Source of the DNA: a virus
Lineage: Duplodnaviria > Heunggongvirae > Uroviricota > Caudoviricetes
IMG/VR virus record: IMGVR_UViG_2681813233_000012
Location: 1-8,739 of that record
DNA length: 8,739 nucleotides
Direction: 5' to 3' (one strand)
This document shows positions 1 to 8,739 of this stretch, in pieces (the first letter of the stretch is position 1; the number at the start of each line of letters is the position of its first letter). Below the pieces are notes generated by a model. It saw only the letters and a program-made list of their open reading frames with translations. It had not been told where the DNA came from and searched no databases. A program made the translations under genes and the position numbers.

Positions 1-39
1 TAAGTTGGAGTCATTACCGACGATGTTGACGGGCAGGAG

Positions 40-1866
40 ATGCCAGGGCCCAACGAAAGCGACAATTTCCCAGTAGAATCTGCGACGGCAAATACCGTAG
101 TAAGTGGTGATTATGCTGGAGGCCAGATAGCGATGAAAATCGTCAAGCAGGCTGAGTTCGACTACTTCATGGGGCTCGTGCTACCGCATTCTGTCACCTT
201 TACAATTAATGTCACCTACAACACTACATCGGGCAGCGTTACAGAAGATGTGCTTTTCTCAGGTACGCTGATTTCTGCTGTAGAGAGTGATGATGGTTCC
301 TTGATAGACCATGTTCAGTGGTACACGTTCACCATGACAGATTTGCAGGGACCGCCAACAGTTCCATCTACTGCCACCATTAACACGACAAAATTCATTC
401 TCAATGATAACGAGGCGCTTGTTGTGGGGCCTTTCTTCTCGCCTGTTGAGTCAACTGAGCTGTGGCTGCATACACAGTCATCACTTGGTGGCGGTAACTG
501 GACGGACTGGACGGTAACAATCTGGAAAATTGACGACGATTACAATCAGATCCCCGGAACTCAGCAGGCCTTCACCTATCATCAGGGAACGCCGCATAAG
601 TCGACCAGCGAAGTGTTTTATCGCACCGATAAAATAATTCCAGCAGGAGGGTTTGGTAAATACGCCATCAACTTCCAGCGTACAAACAACTCCAATGATG
701 CCTCTATCCTGAAGGTCGAAGAGATTCACGCCGTTAATATTCGCAGCAATGTGGTTCACCCGACTGATACGCTTGTTCGTGTGAAGGTCAGGGCGACAGA
801 GAATGCACTGGGTAGCCGTGACCGCAAATACAACGCCATGGTGACTCGCCACACCATCAGTTACAACCTGACGACACAGTCCGTGGATTACACATTACGG
901 CCGTCTCGGTCGTTTGCTGACGCGGTGGCGCATACCTGGCTTGTAATGGGAGGCCAACCAGAAAACAGTATTGATCTGTACGGCCTGTACTCTATCGTGG
1001 AAAGCCTGCCTGATGAGCGGCTGGGCTACTTCGACTACACGTTTGACGATGAGAACGACTCACTTGGTGACAGGGTGCAGGCGATCTGCAATGCAGCATC
1101 CGTCATGGCGTACTGGGATGACGGTGTGCTGACATTCACCCGCGACCAGAAGGTTGATTATCCTGCTGCTGTATTCAACCGGGCCAACATGAAGACAGAC
1201 GAGTACAAAATTACGTACGAAGCCACTCTTCCCGGAGGTTACGACGGCGTTCAGGTCTCCTACGTTCATCCGACTACGAATAACAAGACGTACATCAACT
1301 ACCGCGTTCTGAACGGCGTTATCGTCGAGCAGGAAGCTGAGAACCCAAACAAGCTTGAGATAGTAGGATTCCGTAACGAGTACCAGGCTCGTGAGCGAGC
1401 GTTACGCGAAACAAAGCGGCTTATCTACTCCCGGGTGAAGATGAATGCCAAGGTATTTGAGGACGGGATTATCCAGGTGGGCAGCGTTATCCAGATGCCG
1501 GATATCTACGACAGCAACCAGCAGCAGGGTTACATCACCGGCCGCACTGGGAATAACTTCGATACGAGCGAACCAATCAAGTTTACCGGAACGATGTATG
1601 TTCTGGTTACTGACAGCTTGGGCAATCCAACACTGCGTTATCCGGCAACGGCCCGCAGCGACACGAAATATGGATTTACTGCAGCAATACCCACCATTCA
1701 GCTCAACATATGGAACGGAGACACTGTGCAGCTCCCGTCGCGCTATCTCATAGCGACCGTAGAAGAGTTAGATAGTCAATTATGGACAGTCAACAGCATC
1801 AAACCGAACACTGACAATACGGTATCCCTGATCGTCGCAGAGTACAGCGACTCAGTCTACGGATAG
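40..1866 (+). CDS. Phage virion structural protein, 608 aa (tail-associated or ejection-type protein; family not recognised)
   Basis: Long uninterrupted ORF with ATG at 40 and an in-frame TAA at 1..3 just upstream, so the ORF is complete. AGGAG lies immediately 5' of the ATG. The protein is Thr/Asn/Ser-rich and beta-like, and sits directly upstream of the tailspike gene. Product assignment is by position and composition only. Confidence 0.8.
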   Translation: MPGPNESDNFPVESATANTVVSGDYAGGQIAMKIVKQAEFDYFMGLVLPHSVTFTINVTYNTTSGSVTEDVLFSGTLISAVESDDGSLIDHVQWYTFTMTDLQGPPTVPSTATINTTKFILNDNEALVVGPFFSPVESTELWLHTQSSLGGGNWTDWTVTIWKIDDDYNQIPGTQQAFTYHQGTPHKSTSEVFYRTDKIIPAGGFGKYAINFQRTNNSNDASILKVEEIHAVNIRSNVVHPTDTLVRVKVRATENALGSRDRKYNAMVTRHTISYNLTTQSVDYTLRPSRSFADAVAHTWLVMGGQPENSIDLYGLYSIVESLPDERLGYFDYTFDDENDSLGDRVQAICNAASVMAYWDDGVLTFTRDQKVDYPAAVFNRANMKTDEYKITYEATLPGGYDGVQVSYVHPTTNNKTYINYRVLNGVIVEQEAENPNKLEIVGFRNEYQARERALRETKRLIYSRVKMNAKVFEDGIIQVGSVIQMPDIYDSNQQQGYITGRTGNNFDTSEPIKFTGTMYVLVTDSLGNPTLRYPATARSDTKYGFTAAIPTIQLNIWNGDTVQLPSRYLIATVEELDSQLWTVNSIKPNTDNTVSLIVAEYSDSVYG

Positions 1867-1888
1867 AACCTAATCCGAATATCACAAT

Positions 1889-1911
1889 CCGGCCACTGAG
1901 CCGGTTTTTTT
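1889..1911 (+). terminator. Rho-independent terminator candidate (CCGGC / GCCGG stem, 6-nt loop, T7 tract)
   Basis: CCGGC at 1889..1893 pairs with GCCGG at 1900..1904, followed by TTTTTTT at 1905..1911, 23 nt after the stop of the 40..1866 ORF. Confidence 0.55.
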
Positions 1912-1922
1912 ATGGAAAAATT

Positions 1923-4298
1923 ATGGCCACCCAACCAACAAATAACGCAGTGCCAAGCGAATCACCCCGTGATCTGAAGTTTAACGCGGGGAAAATTGAT
2001 GAGTTCGTTACGTCTGAGAATCATGATTATGTTGACAGATTTGGCAATAAACATCGTACAATTGAAGGCATAAATTACGATTCGAACCAGGCAATTCTGA
2101 ATTATGGCTATATCACGAAGGATTCTTTTGAAGATGGCAGCACCATTAGCCTTGCTAACGAGTGCTTACGCTGGAAGAGCAACGGCGAGTACTACAGATG
2201 GGATGGGTCACTCCCCAAAGTAGTTCCCCCTGGCTCTACTCCGGAAGGCACTGGTGGGCTAGGGAAAGGTAAGTGGGTTGGTGTCGGAGATGCATCTTTG
2301 CGATCGGCAATGAAGAATGAGAATGGTACTGATTTAATTAATGGAACAAAATCTGTTGTTGGGTCAGTTACAAGATCACTAACAGATATGTTGTCAGACA
2401 AGATATCCGTGCGGGATTTTGGCGGAATTGATGACTATGATGGAACAAATGCATCAACATGCACTAACAACAGAATTCCATTTCAACGGTATTTTGAATA
2501 TCTTAATTCAATTGGCGGTGGCGATCTAAATATTCCACGTAAATTAACCGGGAAATATTTTATTAGTGGTGATGACCACACACAAGTTACCTCTAAAGTT
2601 CGTTTAAATACTGACGAAGGTGTATCTATACATCTTGATTTCTCTGGAGGTGCTTCAAATACTCCATTTGCCAATCTCGATTTAAGGGCATCGAGCCAGA
2701 TAAAGATTGAGTATGTTAATTTTGGTTATCCGTCATATGTTGGTGGTAGCGTAGACACGCCATTTAGTGACTCTTTGCAAACCATGAACAATGGTGATGG
2801 TATTTACACGGTGCCAGAAGTACTATCAGGTAGTGATTTTAAAGTCATTTCATTGGGAAATAGCTCTGTTGAAATACCACCGTTATCAACATCCGGAGAT
2901 ACAATCTCTTTTAATGGCGGAGGGGTTCCAACTGCAGCAGTCATCAGCGTGACTCCTGGTGACGAAATTATGGCGTTAATAGGCTCGAATTCGCTTGGGG
3001 GAATTATTGCCGGTGTCGTCACGGTTAATGGCTATGCTTATGTTTCTCAAGATACTTCTAGTGGTAATATTACCCTTGCAGAAGGCACGATAGGGCAGCC
3101 AAATATACTAACTGGTCTTAATTATGCTCTCATGGATCAGCTAAGAGATCGGTTTGACCGTGCTATCATAACAGTAAAAATTACTTCATCGAGAACCTTT
3201 ACCGTTATGGCTAACGGTCTGGCAATATGCAGTCATACCACCAGGTCTAGTATTCTTGGCGCTTGTCTTGGTACTTCCGACATTAATAGTATTGTGAATG
3301 TATCACAAATGTCTCGAGTTAGAGGGCATAGTTTTTCCGGGTCCAAGCCTTTGAGGATATTGGTTTGCGGAGATTCAATTACCGATCAAAATAATCAATA
3401 TTCATGGGCCAAATATCTCCAGATGCAGTTGGGCTCAGCTGGCGTTAACATTGCAGAGATAAATAATTTAGCAGTGGCTGGACAGACAGCGGCCCAACAA
3501 CTCAGCATCCTGAAAACTGTTGGTGTAGGATATGATATCTGCCTGATACAGGTTGGTGTAAATGATGTTCAGTTACAGACTCCGGTAGCATCCTTCATTT
3601 CGACAATAAATGAAATGGTCACTTACGCGAAGGGGATTGGAGCATTTCCGATTGTTGGTGTACCCACGGCTTTTTATTCTCTTGCAGAGGCGAATGCTAA
3701 TGGGCAAACGGGAGGGCAAAACACATCAAACAACTCTTCGATAGGGATGTACCGATCGCTTCTTATTCGTGCTGTTGCAGCAGCTGGCGGAATTGTTAAC
3801 CTTGAGCCTATGAAAGGACATGGAGCTATGACGGCTAAGTGGCTGTCACTGAAACCGTATGCCGTCAGCGATAGCATCGTGCTGGACAATATTCACCCCA
3901 CTCCATATGGGTCGATGCTCCTGGCACAAGGATATGCGCGATGCATTCTTGGATGGCTTACTAGGCCTGACATGACACCAACGGAAAGCTTTGAATTTAT
4001 TCCTAGCGGGTGGCTTAGCCCAGGATTTGGCGAAACATCGATCCCTAAAATTAAAGGAAGGGAGTTCTCTGGGTTGATAAGTCTGCATGCAACAAATATC
4101 AATGATGGTTCAGTGGCCTTCACTTTGCCACCATCATTTAAAGTAGATAACGTTAAGATGCTTGCGGTGACAGGGACAAACAGTTCCGGGCTTCCGGTAG
4201 GTGTTTGTAATTTATATGTTGGGACAGACGGGAAGTGTTACTTCTTTAATATTCCAGAAGGAGTTACCCAAGTATCAATGGACGGTGTGGTTTTATAG
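1923..4298 (+). CDS. Tailspike / tail fibre protein with a C-terminal SGNH-hydrolase (polysaccharide esterase) domain, 791 aa
   Basis: N-terminal ~115 aa adaptor-like region, then a segment typical of the start of pectate-lyase-like beta-helix tailspikes (ISVRDFGGIDDYDG...IPRKLTGKYFISGDD). All SGNH blocks are present in order: GDSIT (Ser485, nt 3375..3377), block II Gly in NLAVAGQT (Gly520), GVNDV (Asn547), DNIH (Asp655/His658, nt 3885..3896). A further ~130-aa C-terminal domain follows. Confidence 0.85.
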   Translation: MATQPTNNAVPSESPRDLKFNAGKIDEFVTSENHDYVDRFGNKHRTIEGINYDSNQAILNYGYITKDSFEDGSTISLANECLRWKSNGEYYRWDGSLPKVVPPGSTPEGTGGLGKGKWVGVGDASLRSAMKNENGTDLINGTKSVVGSVTRSLTDMLSDKISVRDFGGIDDYDGTNASTCTNNRIPFQRYFEYLNSIGGGDLNIPRKLTGKYFISGDDHTQVTSKVRLNTDEGVSIHLDFSGGASNTPFANLDLRASSQIKIEYVNFGYPSYVGGSVDTPFSDSLQTMNNGDGIYTVPEVLSGSDFKVISLGNSSVEIPPLSTSGDTISFNGGGVPTAAVISVTPGDEIMALIGSNSLGGIIAGVVTVNGYAYVSQDTSSGNITLAEGTIGQPNILTGLNYALMDQLRDRFDRAIITVKITSSRTFTVMANGLAICSHTTRSSILGACLGTSDINSIVNVSQMSRVRGHSFSGSKPLRILVCGDSITDQNNQYSWAKYLQMQLGSAGVNIAEINNLAVAGQTAAQQLSILKTVGVGYDICLIQVGVNDVQLQTPVASFISTINEMVTYAKGIGAFPIVGVPTAFYSLAEANANGQTGGQNTSNNSSIGMYRSLLIRAVAAAGGIVNLEPMKGHGAMTAKWLSLKPYAVSDSIVLDNIHPTPYGSMLLAQGYARCILGWLTRPDMTPTESFEFIPSGWLSPGFGETSIPKIKGREFSGLISLHATNINDGSVAFTLPPSFKVDNVKMLAVTGTNSSGLPVGVCNLYVGTDGKCYFFNIPEGVTQVSMDGVVL

Positions 4299-4302
4299 TT
4301 CC

Positions 4303-4326
4303 GTGTGGGAGGTCTCCCTCCCACAC
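4303..4326. terminator. 10-bp GC-rich hairpin between convergent genes (candidate bidirectional terminator)
   Basis: GTGTGGGAGG at 4303..4312 is the exact reverse complement of CCTCCCACAC at 4317..4326, with a 4-nt loop. It lies between the tailspike stop (4298) and the stop of the - strand gene (4333). There is no clean U-tract on either side, so terminator function is inferred. Confidence 0.5.
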
Positions 4327-4332
4327 TCACTA

Positions 4333-5412
4333 TTAATTGTAAGGGGTTTCTCTTTCCATTTCTAAAACTATGGCTCTGAAATTTCTATTAAACTCATAAC
4401 CAGGTTTATTATGTAACTCTGCATTTATGCAGTCTCCTAGAAGAGAACTTCTGATTCTAGCACCATACCCATTGGTATGATAAGCAGAGTCCATAAATAA
4501 TTTTCCTCCAAGATTAGACGCGCTTGGTGCGCAAATAACGTTAATACCAGCAACAGAAAGCAAACCCTTAAGTTTCATTAACGACTGCATGGTTTGTCCA
4601 TTATCAGTGTCAAACCCCGGATTTCGCATCGTAACAGGCCATGTAATAAATAATTTCCCACCTTTATTAGAAACAAAATTATTTATTTCCTTGAGTGTTG
4701 TATATGTATGTTCAGATATTTTAGGAATGTCTGAGTTATATGTAAATGTGCCATTATACACAGAATCGTAAACAGTTTTACCGTCAATAAAAACATTGAT
4801 GTCACCGTTTTTATTTAGACTTTTATAACTGTACCCATTATATTCACCATTGGTAGAGTTAAGATGATTGATGACATCACTCAACGGTGAAACCAGGCCT
4901 TTATCTTCTGCATTAAATCCTTCAACTAACCTTTTGGGGCTAACATTCATCATGAACTTTATACGGTTATAAATGTTGATGCTTGATAGGTAATCCTGGC
5001 CCCACCCCAATATATTATTAACAAACCAATCAGTTGGTGCTTCCGTACGTGTGTAGTACTCATACTCAAGCGGCATTACAACGATATCACCATTTTTAAA
5101 ATGCTTTTTTAATTGATAAAAATGATAGTTTATATCTAGCTCTGCATGCGTTGCAATATTTACAACTGGAAGTGATGTTTTATGGGAAATAATTTCACTA
5201 TTTATAGAAAATAAGCTATTCGACCCGCTAGAGATTATTATTTTTTTCCCATTTATCCTGTCAGCGGCAACGCCTTTAAAATCAATTACGTTCTTTAGCC
5301 ACCACCCACCTACAACCTGCTTTCCTTCCTGCATTTTGAAAGCATAAATAAACGTCCCAGCGGCAAATGCAAGTATTGCTAAGAATATAGAGAAGCTGAA
5401 TTTATAATTCAC
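4333..5412 (-). CDS. Membrane-anchored SGNH/DltD-like (PatB/AlgJ-class) protein, predicted periplasmic partner of the upstream MBOAT acyltransferase, 359 aa
   Basis: GTG start at 5410..5412 preceded by AAGGG 6 nt upstream, 9 bp after the MBOAT stop, suggesting an operon. N-terminal hydrophobic anchor (FSIFLAILAFAAGTFIYAF). Ser-rich motif IISSGSNS (res 59..66) near the N-terminus and DSAYH (Asp308/His312) near the C-terminus, the SGNH-like order of nucleophile then Asp/His. Very AT-rich. Confidence 0.6.
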   Translation of the reverse strand: MNYKFSFSIFLAILAFAAGTFIYAFKMQEGKQVVGGWWLKNVIDFKGVAADRINGKKIIISSGSNSLFSINSEIISHKTSLPVVNIATHAELDINYHFYQLKKHFKNGDIVVMPLEYEYYTRTEAPTDWFVNNILGWGQDYLSSINIYNRIKFMMNVSPKRLVEGFNAEDKGLVSPLSDVINHLNSTNGEYNGYSYKSLNKNGDINVFIDGKTVYDSVYNGTFTYNSDIPKISEHTYTTLKEINNFVSNKGGKLFITWPVTMRNPGFDTDNGQTMQSLMKLKGLLSVAGINVICAPSASNLGGKLFMDSAYHTNGYGARIRSSLLGDCINAELHNKPGYEFNRNFRAIVLEMERETPYN

Positions 5413-5421
5413 TGTTCGCCC

Positions 5422-6267
5422 TTAAAAATTGAAGTAAATAAAGGATCCGGGAGCCGCCCCACCCAAGGAAGCAGTCACTGCAATGCAAACGCCAAAGGCA
5501 CACAGGCATGGAGCAAGCAGATTCCACGCTATACCACTCTTATGTTCTTTGGTCATCTCCATGAAAACATTAGAATTTACATTAATTAAGCACGTCATAA
5601 TGGCAATGGCGCAAACAGCTATCATATAGAAACCACCTTTCGATGCCTCATAGAGGAAAGAGTCCGCAAAAGGTTGAGCATATTTAAATCCGGAAACCAA
5701 AGAATCGTAACCAGCAAACATTTTCTTTAGCAAACTAAAAGCATCATTTAAGTTATCTGTTCTGAAGAAAATCCAGGTGATATTCACGTAATTGAATGTT
5801 ATAAACCAACCTACAACGCTCGGCATGCGAAAGCCATTTTGTGACCAATACCTGTGAATGACAAGCCCAGCCCCGTGTAAAGCGCCCCACGCCAAAAAAT
5901 TCCATCCAGCTCCATGCCAGAAACCGCCGATCAAAAACGTCAAAAACAGGTTTAGATATGTGCGTAATACACCATTTCGGTTTCCGCCAAGAGGAATGTA
6001 GACATAATTCCTGAGCCACGTGGAAAGGGTAATGTGCCAGCGTCTCCAGAAATCTTGAAGGTCTGTTGCTATGTATGGTGAATTGAAGTTGATAGGCAGC
6101 ACAACGCCAAACAGAAGGGCCGAGCCAATCGCCATGTCAGTATATCCGGAGAAATCAAAGTATAACTGGATACTGTATGAGAGGCTGGTTATCCATGCCT
6201 CCAAAGCACCAAGGGCTGAGATATTTGCATAACCTTGATCCGCTATAGAGCCAAAATATGAAGACAA
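5422..6267 (-). CDS. MBOAT-family membrane-bound O-acyltransferase (AlgI/DltB/PatA-like), C-terminal portion; the frame is open upstream to 6357
   Basis: Contains the MBOAT signature region: YFDFSGYTDMAIG, FWRRWHITLSTWLRNYVYIPLGGNR and GGFWHGAGWNFLAWGALHG (conserved His). The ORF-track start at 6267 is a TTG; the same frame stays open to a TAA at 6358..6360. Confidence 0.8.
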   Translation of the reverse strand: MSSYFGSIADQGYANISALGALEAWITSLSYSIQLYFDFSGYTDMAIGSALLFGVVLPINFNSPYIATDLQDFWRRWHITLSTWLRNYVYIPLGGNRNGVLRTYLNLFLTFLIGGFWHGAGWNFLAWGALHGAGLVIHRYWSQNGFRMPSVVGWFITFNYVNITWIFFRTDNLNDAFSLLKKMFAGYDSLVSGFKYAQPFADSFLYEASKGGFYMIAVCAIAIMTCLINVNSNVFMEMTKEHKSGIAWNLLAPCLCAFGVCIAVTASLGGAAPGSFIYFNF

Positions 6268-6334
6268 GACAACTTTTTTGAATATTCCGACACTAAATAT
6301 AAATACTGCGGGAACGAAATATTTCCCGAAATAA

Positions 6335-6859
6335 TTATCCCTTGAGTTGGTTTGTAATTACATCATAATTTGTTATCGGGCCAGAGATGAGCTTAGGGAA
6401 AAACAAAATGTAGCAGCAATAATTTAATATTGAAATGTTAGATATCTGTTTTCTATACAAACTAACTGATAAAGAAATCTGCTGAAATGTATAGAAGCTT
6501 ATGGCTAACGGCGCAATAACATTCATGTGGCCTATATTTAGGTTGAAAATACTAGATATGTTACTTGCAAAGAAGTTGCAGTATTTAAAATAACCAAGAG
6601 ATGCCACGTTAAATATAACTGATAATGCTACATATAATTTTGTCTTTTCAGATTTCATCATTGTTAATATTGCGTAGTTTATCAGCATCGATATCAACAA
6701 AAGAGGCAAGAAATTAAATGTGAAAAAAGTATAGAAATACAGGCTAGCGCAACAAATCCACACCTTGGAGAGAGCAATGTTAAATTTTTTCAGGAAAAGG
6801 AATATCAATACCACCAAAGGTAAAAACATTACAGAATATTCTAACGAGTTAAATAACAT
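6335..6859 (-). CDS. MBOAT-family O-acyltransferase, N-terminal portion (same gene as 5422..6267, separated by a frameshift)
   Basis: ATG at 6857..6859 with AAGG/AGGGA upstream. Typical AlgI/DltB N-terminus: multiple TM helices, ISFYTFQQISL and FFPKLISGPI motifs. Ends at TAA 6335..6337 in a frame offset by one from the C-terminal portion. Confidence 0.8.
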   Translation of the reverse strand: MLFNSLEYSVMFLPLVVLIFLFLKKFNIALSKVWICCASLYFYTFFTFNFLPLLLISMLINYAILTMMKSEKTKLYVALSVIFNVASLGYFKYCNFFASNISSIFNLNIGHMNVIAPLAISFYTFQQISLSVSLYRKQISNISILNYCCYILFFPKLISGPITNYDVITNQLKG

Positions 6860-7110
6860 GCCTTATCCCTTATATAAGTTATCAATCAAGTTTAAACCGC
6901 TATCAGAACACCAAATTCGCTTATCCATTCATGAACCTCTTCCACGCGCAATCTGCAACCACACTTAACATCCATGGTATTAACTTTAATTCCTAAAATT
7001 AGTGACATGGAGTTTACCACTACAGAGAAATCTGATCATTACTTGATCGAAAGAAGGGAACGTGGTGCTGTGCGTATACACAGCAATGGTCGGAGAAGCA
7101 TCTCTGATCC
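6860..7110 (-). promoter_or_regulatory. Putative regulatory region of the MBOAT operon (RBS, weak sigma70-like elements, cluster of three GATC sites)
   Basis: Shine-Dalgarno-like AAGG immediately 5' of the ATG. Candidate -35/-10 (TTTAAA / TATATA on the - strand) has sub-optimal spacing. GATC at 7034..7037, 7045..7048 and 7106..7109. No experimental support. Confidence 0.3.
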
Positions 7111-7405
7111 CATATGCTCGCTCTTTGGTGGTTTGCAGAATGGAAGGCGAGTTGAGGATAAGGCGATATCGTAAATCATCAACTCCTCACCTGGAGGAAT
7201 TGCAGACGGGGAGGCGTAAAAGATACCAGTGCACGATGACGGAACTAGCCCGGATGCGATCTTTGGGATGTTCACCTACATCATCCACGATGTTCGCTCT
7301 GACGAGTTCGACGACTTTCTGGTGATGTGATGGGGCATGGATGAGGAAAACATTATCGAAAACAACCCAAAACAGATGGAGTTGAGAGGTGTCTTGCACC
7401 ATTTC

Positions 7406-8560
7406 TCACAACTTACCATCAAGCCAGTCTGCCCACCACTGCATCATCTCCCTGCGCTTATCCATGTACTGAGCGTGATTGTATATCCCACGAATGGAGC
7501 CGCTGTTAGCGTGCGCCAGTTGCTTCTCTATGGCATCAGCAGGCCACTCGTGCTCATTCATTATTGTGCTGAACTGGTGCCGGAAACCATGTCCACTGGC
7601 GAGGCCCTCGTAGCCTATCTGCCGAATAACCAGCAGAACGGCGTTTTCACTGAGCGGCTTTGTTTTGTCATTGCGCCCGGCGAACACGAAGCTTGATATC
7701 GGCTGCGTTACCGGCCTCAGGGTTTCAAGCAAAGAGACAACTTGATCTGACATTGGGACAAGGTGGGGGCGGCGGCCTTTCATCACCTCTTCGGTGATCG
7801 TAATCGTCCTGGTTTCGAAATCGACGTTCGACCATTGCATAGACCTGAGTTCTTTAGTCCTGAGCACGGTGTACTGCAATACCTGCGTCGCAATCTTCGA
7901 TACGATGCTGCCAGAGAAGCCAGCCAGAGCCTTATTGAATTCCGGTATCTGGTCTGCAGGAAGGAAGGGGTAGTTCTTTTTCCGGTATCCCTTCATGGCA
8001 TCAGCAAGGTCAGGAGCCGGGTTATATTTCGCTCTCCCGGTAACTATCGCGTACCTGAATACTTCCCCGCACCTCCTCCGCGCCTTATTGGCCCGCTCCA
8101 TTGCTCCACGGTCTTCGAACCTGCGGATCACTTCCAGTATCTGCATTGGTTCTATCTCGTTAATCTCCATCCCGCCAATCAACGGCAGAATGTCATCCTG
8201 GAACATGCGTGACAGTTCGGTGCTGTACACTTCTGACCATACCTGTTTTTTGTGCTCGTACCATTCTTGGTATATAGAGCCGAAAGAGTTGTCTTTAACT
8301 GACAGTTTTTTAGCCTTTACAGGATCGACGCCGAGAGACACATCCTTTTTGGCAAGCCAAGCTTTGTCTCTGGCTTCCTGCAATGACATGAGCGGGTATT
8401 TGCCTACCGTCAGAACCTTCTCTTTACCATCGAGCTTGTAACGCAGCTGCCAGACTTTCTTTCCGGTAACCGGAACATAAAGGTACAGTCCGTTGCTGTC
8501 GAGTAGCCGGTACGGTTTATCTTTCGGCTTTGCCGCGTCGATCTGCTTGATGGTGAGCAT
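7406..8560 (-). CDS. intS: Tyrosine integrase, P4/IntS-type (site-specific recombinase with N-terminal arm-binding domain), 384 aa
   Basis: N-terminus MLTIKQIDAAKPKDKPYRLLDSNGLYLYV is typical of P4-family integrases. Catalytic-domain motifs HGFRHQFST (HxxR) and a C-terminal Tyr region (IRGIYNHAQY). It sits next to the 3' end of an argW-type tRNA in the same orientation, as for IntS of the E. coli K-12 CPS-53/KplE1 prophage. The symbol is assigned by this context and recalled similarity, not by a search. Confidence 0.9.
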   Translation of the reverse strand: MLTIKQIDAAKPKDKPYRLLDSNGLYLYVPVTGKKVWQLRYKLDGKEKVLTVGKYPLMSLQEARDKAWLAKKDVSLGVDPVKAKKLSVKDNSFGSIYQEWYEHKKQVWSEVYSTELSRMFQDDILPLIGGMEINEIEPMQILEVIRRFEDRGAMERANKARRRCGEVFRYAIVTGRAKYNPAPDLADAMKGYRKKNYPFLPADQIPEFNKALAGFSGSIVSKIATQVLQYTVLRTKELRSMQWSNVDFETRTITITEEVMKGRRPHLVPMSDQVVSLLETLRPVTQPISSFVFAGRNDKTKPLSENAVLLVIRQIGYEGLASGHGFRHQFSTIMNEHEWPADAIEKQLAHANSGSIRGIYNHAQYMDKRREMMQWWADWLDGKL

Positions 8561-8585
8561 GGGTAAAATTCCGGAGGGTAAAATT
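8561..8585 (+). repeat. Two direct copies of GGGTAAAATT (8561..8570, 8576..8585) abutting the int start codon
   Basis: Exact 10-bp direct repeat separated by 5 bp (CCGGA). On the - strand it reads AATTTTACCC-TCCGG-AATTTTACCC-ATG. Confidence 0.6.
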
Positions 8586-8595
8586 ATTTACTCGT

Positions 8596-8625
8596 TTTTT
8601 ACCCGCCGAAGCATGCGGCTGTCAA
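8596..8625 (-). promoter_or_regulatory. Candidate sigma70 promoter for int (-35 TTGACA, 18-bp spacer, -10 TAAAAA)
   Basis: On the - strand, TTGACA (8620..8625) and TAAAAA (8596..8601) are separated by 18 nt, ~35 nt upstream of the int ATG. Confidence 0.35.
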
Positions 8626-8634
8626 CGTTCTATT

Positions 8635-8714
8635 GCGAACTATGGCGAACTAATATTTTATTGAGAGCTTGCTGTGTAAGGGATTTTGCGAACTACTGCG
8701 GAGAGTGGCGAACT
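8635..8714 (+). repeat. Four direct copies of GCGAACT (8635..8641, 8645..8651, 8688..8694, 8708..8714): candidate integrase arm-type binding sites in the att region
   Basis: Heptamer repeated four times in the same orientation, in two pairs, between the tRNA 3' end and the int promoter. Arm-type sites of P4/lambda-family integrases are short direct repeats in this position. Confidence 0.5.
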
Positions 8715-8720
8715 GTGAAA

Positions 8721-8739
8721 TGGTGTCCCCTGCAGGAAT
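8721..8739 (-). tRNA. argW: 3' end of a tRNA-Arg gene (argW-type, anticodon CCU), partial: only the last 19 nt including CCA are in the window
   Basis: Reverse complement of 8721..8739 is ATTCCTGCAGGGGACACCA, which matches my recollection of the 3' terminus (T-arm, acceptor stem, CCA) of E. coli argW. The gene continues beyond the window end. Confidence 0.6.

What the first reader, a model, noticed from the sequence alone, without database searches (positions are those of the whole stretch)
1923..6859. Possible write/erase pairing: acylation module next to a tailspike with its own esterase domain
The same prophage end encodes a putative O-acyl-adding module and a tailspike carrying an SGNH esterase that would remove O-acyl groups from a surface polysaccharide. 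If both act on the same polymer, the prophage may install the modification its own virion recognises and cleaves, or modify a neighbouring position to block superinfection by relatives. Either way this would be a self-contained receptor-editing system.
Basis: inference. Interest (0 to 1): 0.75.

Follow-up and report, generated by a model that had tools for sequence, protein, structure and literature searches.

The report
Esterase tailspike beside broken acetylation cassette
The end of a decayed E. coli prophage carries a tail spike with a sugar-deacetylating domain next to a two-gene membrane acetyltransferase cassette that is now frameshifted; this is the usual temperate-phage layout of a tail spike followed by genes that modify the host surface sugar, in an uncommon version, and nothing shows a dedicated write/erase cycle.

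Summary
Positions 1923-4298 encode a 791-aa tailspike with a complete SGNH esterase domain. Convergent with it are a 359-aa membrane-anchored SGNH-fold protein (4333-5412) and an MBOAT acyltransferase (5422-6859). A 5-nt deletion splits the MBOAT; a near-identical prophage has it intact.

This spike clade always sits beside this cassette on this phage backbone (6 lineages). But in 91 related loci the slot after the spike nearly always holds some O-antigen-modifying cassette (AT3 acyltransferase, MBOAT pair, GtrABC, Wzy), whatever the spike's enzyme.

- Esterase spikes also pair with glucosylation cassettes.
- Near-identical esterase spikes carry different cassettes.
- The same esterase head occurs in podoviruses without any cassette.
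- Enrichment of acyl cassettes next to esterase spikes is weak (14/18 vs 19/38 lineages, p=0.08).

The closest precedent is Pseudomonas phage JBD44 gp40-41, an MBOAT plus SGNH-like pair beside the tail spike. It acetylates O-antigen and stops progeny re-adsorbing to lysogens.

The most likely reading is a classical lysogenic-conversion cassette, dead in this copy, inside a defective prophage (IS1 cuts tipJ). It is a new variant of a known kind, of modest interest.

The parts
1..18 (.). Terminal inverted repeat of an IS1 element abutting the truncated tipJ gene
   Evidence: TAAGTTGGAGTCATTACC is the last 18 nt of the annotated IS1 copies in L028 and L019. Homology to intact tipJ genes starts at nt 18-19.
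19..1866 (+). C-terminal about 610 codons of the TipJ-family tail-tip (host specificity) protein; the N-terminal third is missing
   Evidence: NCBIfam NF040662 E 1.6e-147. 100% identical to residues 308-915 of the L008 ORF.
1923..4298 (+). Tailspike, 791 aa: N-terminal adaptor (aa 1-139), small domain, beta-sandwich (about aa 296-469), SGNH esterase (about aa 477-684), C-terminal beta-sandwich
3351..3974 (+). SGNH esterase domain of the tailspike (S485, G520, N547, D655, H658)
   Evidence: Pfam GDSL_2 aa 482-663. The catalytic residues are invariant in 36 homologues. Fold matches to carbohydrate acetylesterases.
4304..4327 (.). Perfect 10-bp inverted repeat (GTGTGGGAGG tctc CCTCCCACAC) between the two convergent stop codons; likely bidirectional terminator
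   Evidence: Read from the sequence. The simple terminator scan did not list it, because there is no T-run.
4333..5412 (-). Partner protein, 359 aa: N-terminal membrane anchor plus extracytoplasmic SGNH/DltD-like domain (invariant G63-S64-N65, H312)
5422..6267 (-). MBOAT acyltransferase, C-terminal 281 codons, now out of frame with the start; carries the catalytic His (RRWH, H277 of the intact protein) and the C-terminal FIYFNF (FxYxxF) acyl-shuttle motif
   Evidence: PF03062 E 1e-28. DltB structures E 4e-30 for the intact homologue. Motifs.
6335..6859 (-). MBOAT N-terminal 174 codons, ending at a premature stop created by the frameshift
6341..6350 (-). Frameshift site: one CAACT unit lost from CAACTCAACTCA
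   Evidence: Alignments to L008, L022, L003, L010, L001, L005, L026 and L027 all show 5 extra nt.
7086..7330 (+). Remnant of a umuD/HumD-like S24 peptidase gene: residues about 48-130 only, in two frames
   Evidence: tblastn with the L002 HumD, 47% and 71% identity over two segments, E 9e-16.
7406..8560 (-). Tyrosine integrase, 384 aa
   Evidence: PF00589, PF22022 and PF13356. 95.6% identical to the L002 integrase, which lies next to tRNA-Arg.
8721..8739 (-). First 19 nt of the 3' end of a tRNA-Arg gene (attachment site), cut by the window edge
   Evidence: Window 7426-8739 aligns to L002 11497-12810, where tRNA-Arg is annotated at 12792-12866. ARAGORN finds no whole tRNA in the window.

Best explanation
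This is the right end of a defective siphoviral prophage of E. coli integrated at tRNA-Arg. The order is IS1, a truncated tipJ, the tailspike, a lysogenic-conversion cassette, a umuD remnant, and the integrase.

Tailspike (inferred). It binds an O-acetylated surface polysaccharide, most likely the O-antigen, and strips acetyl groups with its SGNH domain instead of cutting the chain.

Cassette (inferred from family mechanism). It is a two-gene MBOAT-SGNH O-acyltransferase expressed from the prophage.
1. The MBOAT takes an acyl group from cytoplasmic acyl-CoA.
2. It loads the group onto the Tyr of its C-terminal FIYFNF motif.
3. It passes the group to Ser64 of the membrane-anchored SGNH-like partner.
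4. The partner puts the group on the polysaccharide outside the cytoplasm.

Purpose (inferred from precedent). The cassette alters the receptor polysaccharide of lysogens so that the phage's own progeny and related phages no longer adsorb productively. This is superinfection exclusion, also called the 'anti-Kronos' effect. The spike head and the cassette travel together because both must fit the same serotype-specific polymer, not because they form an erase/write cycle on one group.

State in this window (shown). The system is dead: the MBOAT is frameshifted and tipJ is interrupted by IS1.
For: Anatomy:
- Spike esterase residues and fold.
- Partner SGNH fold, membrane anchor and invariant Ser/His.
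- MBOAT catalytic His and C-terminal FxYxxF motif.
- The cassette has 31-41% GC against 48-54% in the phage backbone, and lies on the opposite strand.

Slot logic:
- In 64 lineages the position after the spike holds AT3 (31 lineages), MBOAT pairs (9), Gtr and/or Wzy genes (13) and other or nothing (11).
- GtrABC and Wzy act on O-antigen, which points to O-antigen as the usual target of this slot.

Precedent:
- JBD44 gp41 is an MBOAT 50% identical over residues 74-382.
- JBD44 gp40 is an AlgX-type SGNH-like protein.
- The two genes lie between the tail spike and the endolysin and acetylate O-antigen (serotype O10). Deleting them lowers free phage in lysogen cultures about 10^4-fold (bioRxiv 10.1101/2024.03.05.583538).
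- BTP1 OafB acetylates O-antigen rhamnose and blocks the BTP1 tailspike (PMC9558356).

Co-inheritance.

Decay:
- Frameshift.
- IS1 end at the window's left edge.
- umuD remnant.
Against: - No experiment or computation here identifies the acceptor polymer or the position acylated.
- The partner belongs to a very small uncharacterised family (24 homologues in 5.8 billion proteins). It has no sequence similarity to AlgX, AlgJ, PatB or JBD44 gp40, and its catalytic acid could not be assigned.
- A modest excess of acyl cassettes beside esterase spikes (78% vs 50% of lineages, p=0.08) leaves room for a chemistry-specific link.
- The cassette is inactivated independently in sister prophages that have 100%-identical spikes (window; L022 with W34* plus IS1). 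That pattern is unusual for a beneficial conversion gene.
Confidence: 0.62

Rival explanations
1. True write/erase pair. The cassette installs the same O-acyl group that the tailspike esterase recognises and removes. The prophage would then create the receptor mark for its own virions or its kin. Equivalently, the esterase spike evolved to strip the exclusion mark laid down by relatives, allowing infection of heteroimmune lysogens.
For: - Strict co-occurrence within this spike clade on this backbone (6 lineages).
- Co-divergence of spike head and partner.
- Acyl cassettes somewhat enriched beside esterase spikes (OR 3.5, p=0.08).
- Repeated loss-of-function of the writer in sister prophages. 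This would be expected if the mark attracts esterase-spike phages.
- Two decayed remnants keep only the spike and the cassette, with long intact ORFs.
Against: - Esterase spikes also pair with GtrABC cassettes, and 95-99% identical esterase spikes carry different cassettes.
- MBOAT pairs also sit beside beta-helix and P22-type spikes.
- The same esterase head occurs without a cassette in podoviral prophages and in Proteus.
- Installing one's own receptor on lysogens would increase loss of progeny, the opposite of the measured role of JBD44 gp40-41.
Confidence: 0.12
2. The cassette modifies a polymer unrelated to the spike's receptor, such as peptidoglycan, enterobacterial common antigen, colanic acid or a capsule. 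It would serve the host through immune evasion, lysozyme resistance or defence against unrelated phages. Its adjacency to the spike would only reflect the standard insertion slot for accessory genes at the prophage end.
For: - Known bacterial MBOAT-SGNH pairs act on peptidoglycan, alginate, cellulose and teichoic acids (PMC9558356 and PMC12148441).
- The slot is generic and cassettes are swapped independently of the spike.
- Partner homologues occur in Campylobacterota (Arcobacter, Sulfurovum). Their gene neighbourhoods were not examined.
Against: - The cassette type tracks the spike type over long divergence.
- Neighbouring alternatives in the same slot are O-antigen-specific (GtrABC, Wzy).
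- The homologous JBD44 cassette acts on O-antigen, the receptor of that phage.
- The partner is no closer to PatB than to other SGNH proteins.
Confidence: 0.16
3. The split MBOAT is not a dead gene. It is either a sequencing or assembly error, or an OFF state of slipped-strand switching at the CAACT repeat.
For: The lesion is loss of exactly one unit of a two-copy pentanucleotide repeat, with no other change in 200 nt. From my own knowledge, not tested here: the prophage-borne capsule O-acetyltransferase NeuO of CUS-3 is phase-variable through a heptanucleotide repeat.
Against: - Two copies is too short for efficient slippage, and no allele with three or more copies was seen in nine loci.
- The same prophage shows other decay (IS1 in tipJ, umuD remnant).
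- A sister prophage killed the gene by different lesions.
Confidence: 0.08

Closest known systems
Pseudomonas phage JBD44 gp40-gp41 O-antigen acetylation ('anti-Kronos' superinfection exclusion) cassette
   Same: A two-gene cassette of an MBOAT (gp41, 50% identical over residues 74-382) plus an extracytoplasmic SGNH-like partner. [quoted passage not shown]
   Different: The JBD44 partner is AlgX-type (PF16822, DxHW motif). It has no detectable sequence similarity to the window's DltD-like partner. The JBD44 spike gp39 has no recognisable esterase domain. JBD44 is intact and functional, whereas this copy is frameshifted.
Classical serotype-conversion genes next to the tailspike and attachment site: Shigella phage Sf6 oac, Salmonella P22 gtrABC, BTP1 oafB (gtrC family II)
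   Same: An accessory cassette between the tailspike gene and att/int that chemically alters the O-antigen the spike binds, blocking re-adsorption. The BTP1 case is cited in PMC9558356. Sister prophages of this window carry exactly such AT3 and GtrABC cassettes in the same slot.
   Different: Those systems use AT3 acyltransferases or Gtr glucosyltransferases, and their spikes are glycosidases. Here the transferase is an MBOAT-SGNH pair and the spike is an esterase. The Sf6 and P22 gene orders are from my own knowledge, not tested here.
Esterase tailspike gp63.1 of coliphage G7C, and SGNH receptor-binding proteins of Klebsiella prophages
   Same: A virion spike with the same N-terminal adaptor family (PDB 4qnl matches aa 58-133) and an SGNH domain. 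gp63.1 deacetylates O-antigen, and two Klebsiella SGNH receptor-binding proteins are active esterases (PMC13123978).
   Different: The esterase region shows no sequence-level match to gp63.1, and the Gp63_3rd_G7C domain is absent. That domain is present in the T2 group of sister prophages. The architecture here, a beta-sandwich plus SGNH, resembles CE2-type carbohydrate esterases.
Bacterial MBOAT-SGNH polymer O-acyltransferases: PatA/PatB, AlgI/AlgJ/AlgX, WssH/WssI, DltB/DltD
   Same: An MBOAT with the catalytic His and the C-terminal FxYxxF acyl-shuttle motif, plus an adjacent extracytoplasmic SGNH-fold transferase.
   Different: The partner is a separate, tiny family with no Pfam model. The cassette is carried on a prophage, and the acceptor is unknown. 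There are no DltA, DltC or DltX genes, so the donor is presumably acyl-CoA.

Membership tests
Bacterial MBOAT-SGNH polysaccharide O-acyltransferase pair (PatA/PatB type) | MBOAT domain with the universally conserved catalytic His | tested here: met
   PF03062 E 1e-28. DltB structures E 4e-30. FWRRWH with H277 is conserved in all 14 homologues that cover the motif.
Bacterial MBOAT-SGNH polysaccharide O-acyltransferase pair (PatA/PatB type) | C-terminal FxYxxF hexapeptide (acyl-Tyr shuttle) at the very end of the MBOAT | tested here: met
   The protein ends in FIYFNF. Homologues end in FIYFNF, FIYSNF or FIYAAF. The motif is defined in PMC12148441.
Bacterial MBOAT-SGNH polysaccharide O-acyltransferase pair (PatA/PatB type) | Adjacent extracytoplasmic SGNH-fold partner with a catalytic Ser-His(-Asp) | tested here: inconclusive
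Bacterial MBOAT-SGNH polysaccharide O-acyltransferase pair (PatA/PatB type) | Intact reading frames | tested here: not met
   The window's MBOAT is split by a 5-nt deletion. The gene is intact (480 aa) in L008, L003, L010, L001 and others.
Bacterial MBOAT-SGNH polysaccharide O-acyltransferase pair (PatA/PatB type) | Transfer of an acyl group from acyl-CoA to an extracytoplasmic glycan | not testable with these tools
   Needs biochemistry.
SGNH esterase tailspike (G7C gp63.1 type) | Virion-attachment adaptor at the N-terminus | tested here: met
   PF18668 E 1e-17. Matches PDB 9occ gp13 over aa 1-134 (E 2e-47) and 4qnl over aa 58-133. The gene follows tipJ.
SGNH esterase tailspike (G7C gp63.1 type) | Complete SGNH catalytic blocks I, II, III and V | tested here: met
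   S485, G520, N547 and D655/H658 are invariant in 36 homologues. Fold confirmed.
SGNH esterase tailspike (G7C gp63.1 type) | Homology of the esterase region to gp63.1 itself | tested here: not met
   phmmer aligns only the adaptor to 4qnl. There is no PF21562 domain, although sister spikes of group T2 have it. This is a separate lineage of esterase spikes.
SGNH esterase tailspike (G7C gp63.1 type) | Deacetylation of the host polysaccharide receptor | not testable with these tools
   Needs enzyme assays on purified polysaccharide.
Prophage lysogenic-conversion (receptor-masking) cassette | Accessory cassette between the tailspike gene and att/int, with its own orientation and foreign base composition | tested here: met
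   Gene order spike, cassette, umuD remnant, int, tRNA-Arg. GC is 31-41% against 48-54%.
Prophage lysogenic-conversion (receptor-masking) cassette | The same slot in relatives holds known O-antigen-modifying genes | tested here: met
   AT3, AT3-SGNH, GtrA/GtrB/GtrC-type and Wzy-type genes in 53 of 64 lineages.
Prophage lysogenic-conversion (receptor-masking) cassette | Lysogens resist adsorption of the same phage | not testable with these tools
   Shown only for the homologous JBD44 cassette.
   14/18 vs 19/38 lineages, p=0.08. Esterase spikes occur with Gtr cassettes and with swapped cassettes. MBOAT pairs occur beside beta-helix spikes.
   No substrate information can be derived from the sequence.

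The most novel reading that the evidence does not exclude
Within this clade the MBOAT-SGNH cassette and the esterase spike act on the same O-acyl mark of the O-antigen. Lysogens would be tagged with an acyl group that excludes depolymerase-type phages, and only virions carrying the matching esterase could strip it. That would make a phage-borne mark-and-unmask system for competition among related temperate phages. It would also explain three observations: the spike and cassette are retained together in otherwise deleted prophages, the writer is repeatedly knocked out, and acyl cassettes tend to sit beside esterase spikes.
Probability: 0.12. Interest if true: 0.7.

Novelty: new variant of a known kind. 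Interest (0 to 1): 0.3.

Why it matters
If the cassette works as inferred, it extends prophage serotype conversion in Enterobacteriaceae beyond the familiar AT3 and Gtr systems to MBOAT-SGNH pairs. It also adds a previously undescribed SGNH partner family, very rare in the databases.

The survey gives a practical rule for this phage group: the gene or genes after the spike predict how lysogens alter the receptor. That matters for O-serotyping from genomes, for predicting phage host range, and for phage therapy cocktails.

The survey also tempers a tempting idea. An esterase spike next to an acyltransferase is not in itself evidence for a write/erase cycle.

Tried and rejected
- **Common origin of the two SGNH domains.** I tested whether the spike's SGNH domain and the partner are related, as duplication would suggest. 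They show no similarity (BLASTP E 0.26).
- **Sequence-based naming of the partner.** Pfam, NCBIfam, PHROGs and PDB sequence searches gave nothing. Only structure prediction resolved it.
- **Similarity of the window's partner to JBD44 gp40.** None was found.
- **Promoter and terminator scans of 4200-7450.** Hits did not exceed shuffled expectation, and none lay upstream of the MBOAT start.
- **Exclusive association of esterase spikes with acyl cassettes.** Rejected by Gtr-bearing esterase-spike lineages and by cassette swaps.
- **Isolated phage genomes.** The partner is absent from 50,697 phage records, and no phage record matches 2091-6859 at the DNA level.
- **Prevalence in E. coli.** Only two of 5,426 complete genomes gave a match covering the cassette.
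- **Source locus for P0007 (Cedecea).** It was not on record.
- **Peptidoglycan O-acetylation (PatAB-like).** Considered as the function and ranked low (see the rival explanations).

Full report
**What is in the window.** Six features account for the sequence.
- A TipJ-family tail-tip gene lacks its 5' third (19-1866, +).
- A 791-aa tailspike follows (1923-4298, +).
- Two convergent genes lie on the minus strand. One is a 359-aa protein without any family hit (4333-5412). The other is an MBOAT acyltransferase in two frames (5422-6267 and 6335-6859).
- A remnant of a umuD-like gene lies at 7086-7330.
- A tyrosine integrase lies at 7406-8560.
- The last 19 nt are the 3' end of a tRNA-Arg gene. 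I infer this from the annotated sister prophage L002.

The first 18 nt are the terminal inverted repeat of IS1, identical to the ends of annotated IS1 copies in L028 and L019. The tail-tip gene is therefore interrupted and the prophage is defective. The cassette has 31-41% GC, against 48-54% for the phage backbone. A perfect 10-bp hairpin (4304-4327) separates the two convergent stop codons.

**The tailspike.**
- Residues 1-139 are the adaptor shared by many spikes: PF18668; PDB 9occ gp13 with E 2e-47; also G7C gp63.1, adaptor only.
- The remainder (aa 140-791) has 43 homologues. They are fused to at least six different adaptors, including the P22 head-binding and T7 fibre N-terminal types, so it is a mobile receptor-binding head.
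- The SGNH residues S485, G520, N547, D655 and H658 are invariant in 36 homologues.
- The AF2 model (pLDDT 83) shows a beta-sandwich followed by an SGNH domain. Its best matches are carbohydrate acetylesterases such as YxiM, PbeAcXE, a CE2 esterase and the peptidoglycan O-acetylesterase Ape1.

It is a credible polysaccharide O-acetylesterase. It belongs to a different lineage from G7C gp63.1.

**The cassette.**
- The MBOAT has the catalytic His (RRWH, H277) and ends in FIYFNF. FxYxxF is the acyl-tyrosine shuttle motif shown for PatA and proposed for all acyl-CoA-dependent MBOAT-SGNH pairs (PMC12148441).
- The partner has only 24 homologues in 5.8 billion proteins.
- Its model (pLDDT 88) is a membrane anchor plus an SGNH fold.
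- G63-S64-N65 and H312 are invariant.

The pair therefore meets the sequence and fold criteria of an MBOAT-SGNH O-acyltransferase. The acceptor is unknown.

**The frameshift.** Relative to eight homologous loci the window lacks one CAACT unit of CAACTCAACTCA.
- L008 is 96.5% identical over 18-8560 and has a 100%-identical spike. It encodes an intact 480-aa MBOAT.
- L022, a sister prophage in an E. coli chromosome, also has an identical spike. It killed the gene differently, with a W34 nonsense change plus an IS1 inserted at the 3' end.
- In Citrobacter L028 an IS1 truncates the partner.
- In one Ewingella assembly the partner is split.

**Is the pairing special?** Within this spike clade on this backbone the cassette is always present: window, L001, L003, L005, L008/9, L010, L011, L022-24, L026-28. 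Spike head, partner and MBOAT diverge together.

To see whether this is specific, I fetched 80 further loci through the spike adaptor and analysed 91 loci (64 lineages) in all. The position after the spike holds:
- AT3 or AT3-SGNH acyltransferases in 31 lineages;
- MBOAT pairs in 9;
- GtrABC-type and/or Wzy-type genes in 13;
- other or nothing in 11.

Spikes with esterase domains (GDSL or SASA) are followed by acyl cassettes in 14/18 lineages of the unbiased subset. Other spikes are followed by acyl cassettes in 19/38 (odds ratio 3.5, p=0.08, not corrected for phylogeny).

Four observations count against a dedicated pair:
- G7C-like esterase spikes are paired with glucosylation cassettes.
- Spikes 95-99% identical carry AT3, GtrABC or DUF6056-Gtr cassettes.
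- More distant MBOAT+partner cassettes (35-37% partner identity) sit next to beta-helix and P22-type spikes.
- The window-type esterase head occurs in podoviral prophages followed directly by lysis genes, and in Proteus at a prophage end, with no cassette.

The adjacency is therefore the generic arrangement of a spike followed by a serotype-conversion slot. The spike head and cassette are exchanged as one block between conserved flanks.

**Precedent.** The intact MBOAT is 50% identical over residues 74-382 to gp41 of Pseudomonas phage JBD44. The neighbouring gp40 is an AlgX-type SGNH-like protein, and both lie next to the tail spike. A preprint reports that these two genes acetylate the O-antigen (serotype O10). 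It also reports that deleting them lowers free phage in lysogen cultures about 10^4-fold, because progeny re-adsorb to lysogens (10.1101/2024.03.05.583538). OafB of prophage BTP1 likewise acetylates O-antigen and blocks the BTP1 spike (PMC9558356). A 2026 Klebsiella study found SGNH receptor-binding proteins to be common in prophages. It noted prophage acetyltransferases and suggested an acetylation/deacetylation layer of competition, but it did not describe a linked pair (PMC13123978).

**Conclusion.** The 'write/erase' reading is not supported as a specific system. The 'modify the receptor to block superinfection' reading is the best explanation, and it is a known kind of system. What is new is modest:
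- an MBOAT-based conversion cassette in enterobacterial prophages;
- an undescribed DltD-like partner family;
- the cassette lying beside an esterase rather than a glycosidase spike.

In this window the system is a relic: the MBOAT is frameshifted, tipJ is cut by IS1, and umuD is a remnant. A same-group write/erase relation remains possible (about 0.12) and is cheaply testable.

Noticed in passing
window 1-18: The window starts with the last 18 nt of an IS1 inverted repeat fused to the middle of tipJ. The prophage is therefore tail-defective in this strain. I cannot tell whether this is a simple insertion or an IS1-mediated deletion.
   Followed up: partly
window 7086-7330: Frame-broken remnant of a umuD/HumD-like S24 peptidase gene. 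Sister prophages carry intact umuD-umuC-like genes and an SOS-response-associated peptidase at this position.
   Followed up: partly
L022 13525-15770; L028 9415-11036; L026 9418-10496: The cassette is inactivated repeatedly and independently. L022 has a W34 nonsense change plus an IS1 at the 3' end of the MBOAT, in a prophage whose spike is 100% identical to the window's. In Citrobacter L028 an IS1 truncates the partner. In one Ewingella assembly the partner is split. This could be selection against the cassette, IS1's preference for AT-rich DNA, or neutral decay.
   Followed up: partly
L001 7183-12774; L026/L027 6302-11950: Two unrelated, otherwise deleted prophage remnants keep only the tailspike, partner and MBOAT, all as long intact ORFs. 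One is in E. coli YZ22MPE6 between yiiG and frv. The other is in Ewingella americana next to dsbB. This could be coincidence of position or retention of the trio by the host.
   Followed up: no
window 6335-6859 vs L001 12260-12774: The first third of the MBOAT is only 67% identical (aa) to the YZ22MPE6 allele, while the rest is 96% identical. This marks a recombination junction inside the gene, close to the frameshift site.
   Followed up: no
L019 10022-12872: In E. coli FDAARGOS_1277 the slot after the spike holds a GNAT N-acetyltransferase, an IS1 and a polysaccharide deacetylase family gene. That is a possible add/remove pair on the lysogen side.
   Followed up: no
L017 11226-14744: An SGNH spike is followed by a separate 227-aa SGNH protein, an IS5 insertion and an AT3 acyltransferase. 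This looks like a split AT3 + SGNH acyltransferase interrupted by the IS.
   Followed up: no
L018 7907-9142: A sister prophage has a short spike annotated as a glycerophosphodiester phosphodiesterase, followed by a hypothetical gene and an AT3. This suggests spikes that cut phosphodiester-linked polysaccharides.
   Followed up: no
L085 9684-14644: Six consecutive minus-strand ORFs (141-525 aa) follow the spike instead of a 1-3 gene cassette. This may be a larger polysaccharide-modification cluster. Not annotated.
   Followed up: no
P0013, P0017, P0018, P0019, P0023 (alignment A2 columns about 400-520): Five partner homologues (one named Arcobacter; most unnamed) carry a conserved extra C-terminal domain of about 120 aa that is absent from the enterobacterial proteins.
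   Followed up: no
window 7406-8560 vs L008 1-1155: The integrase is only 83% identical (aa) to that of L008, although the spike is 100% and the cassette over 99% identical in protein. The prophage end is mosaic, with the junction near the integrase gene.
   Followed up: no
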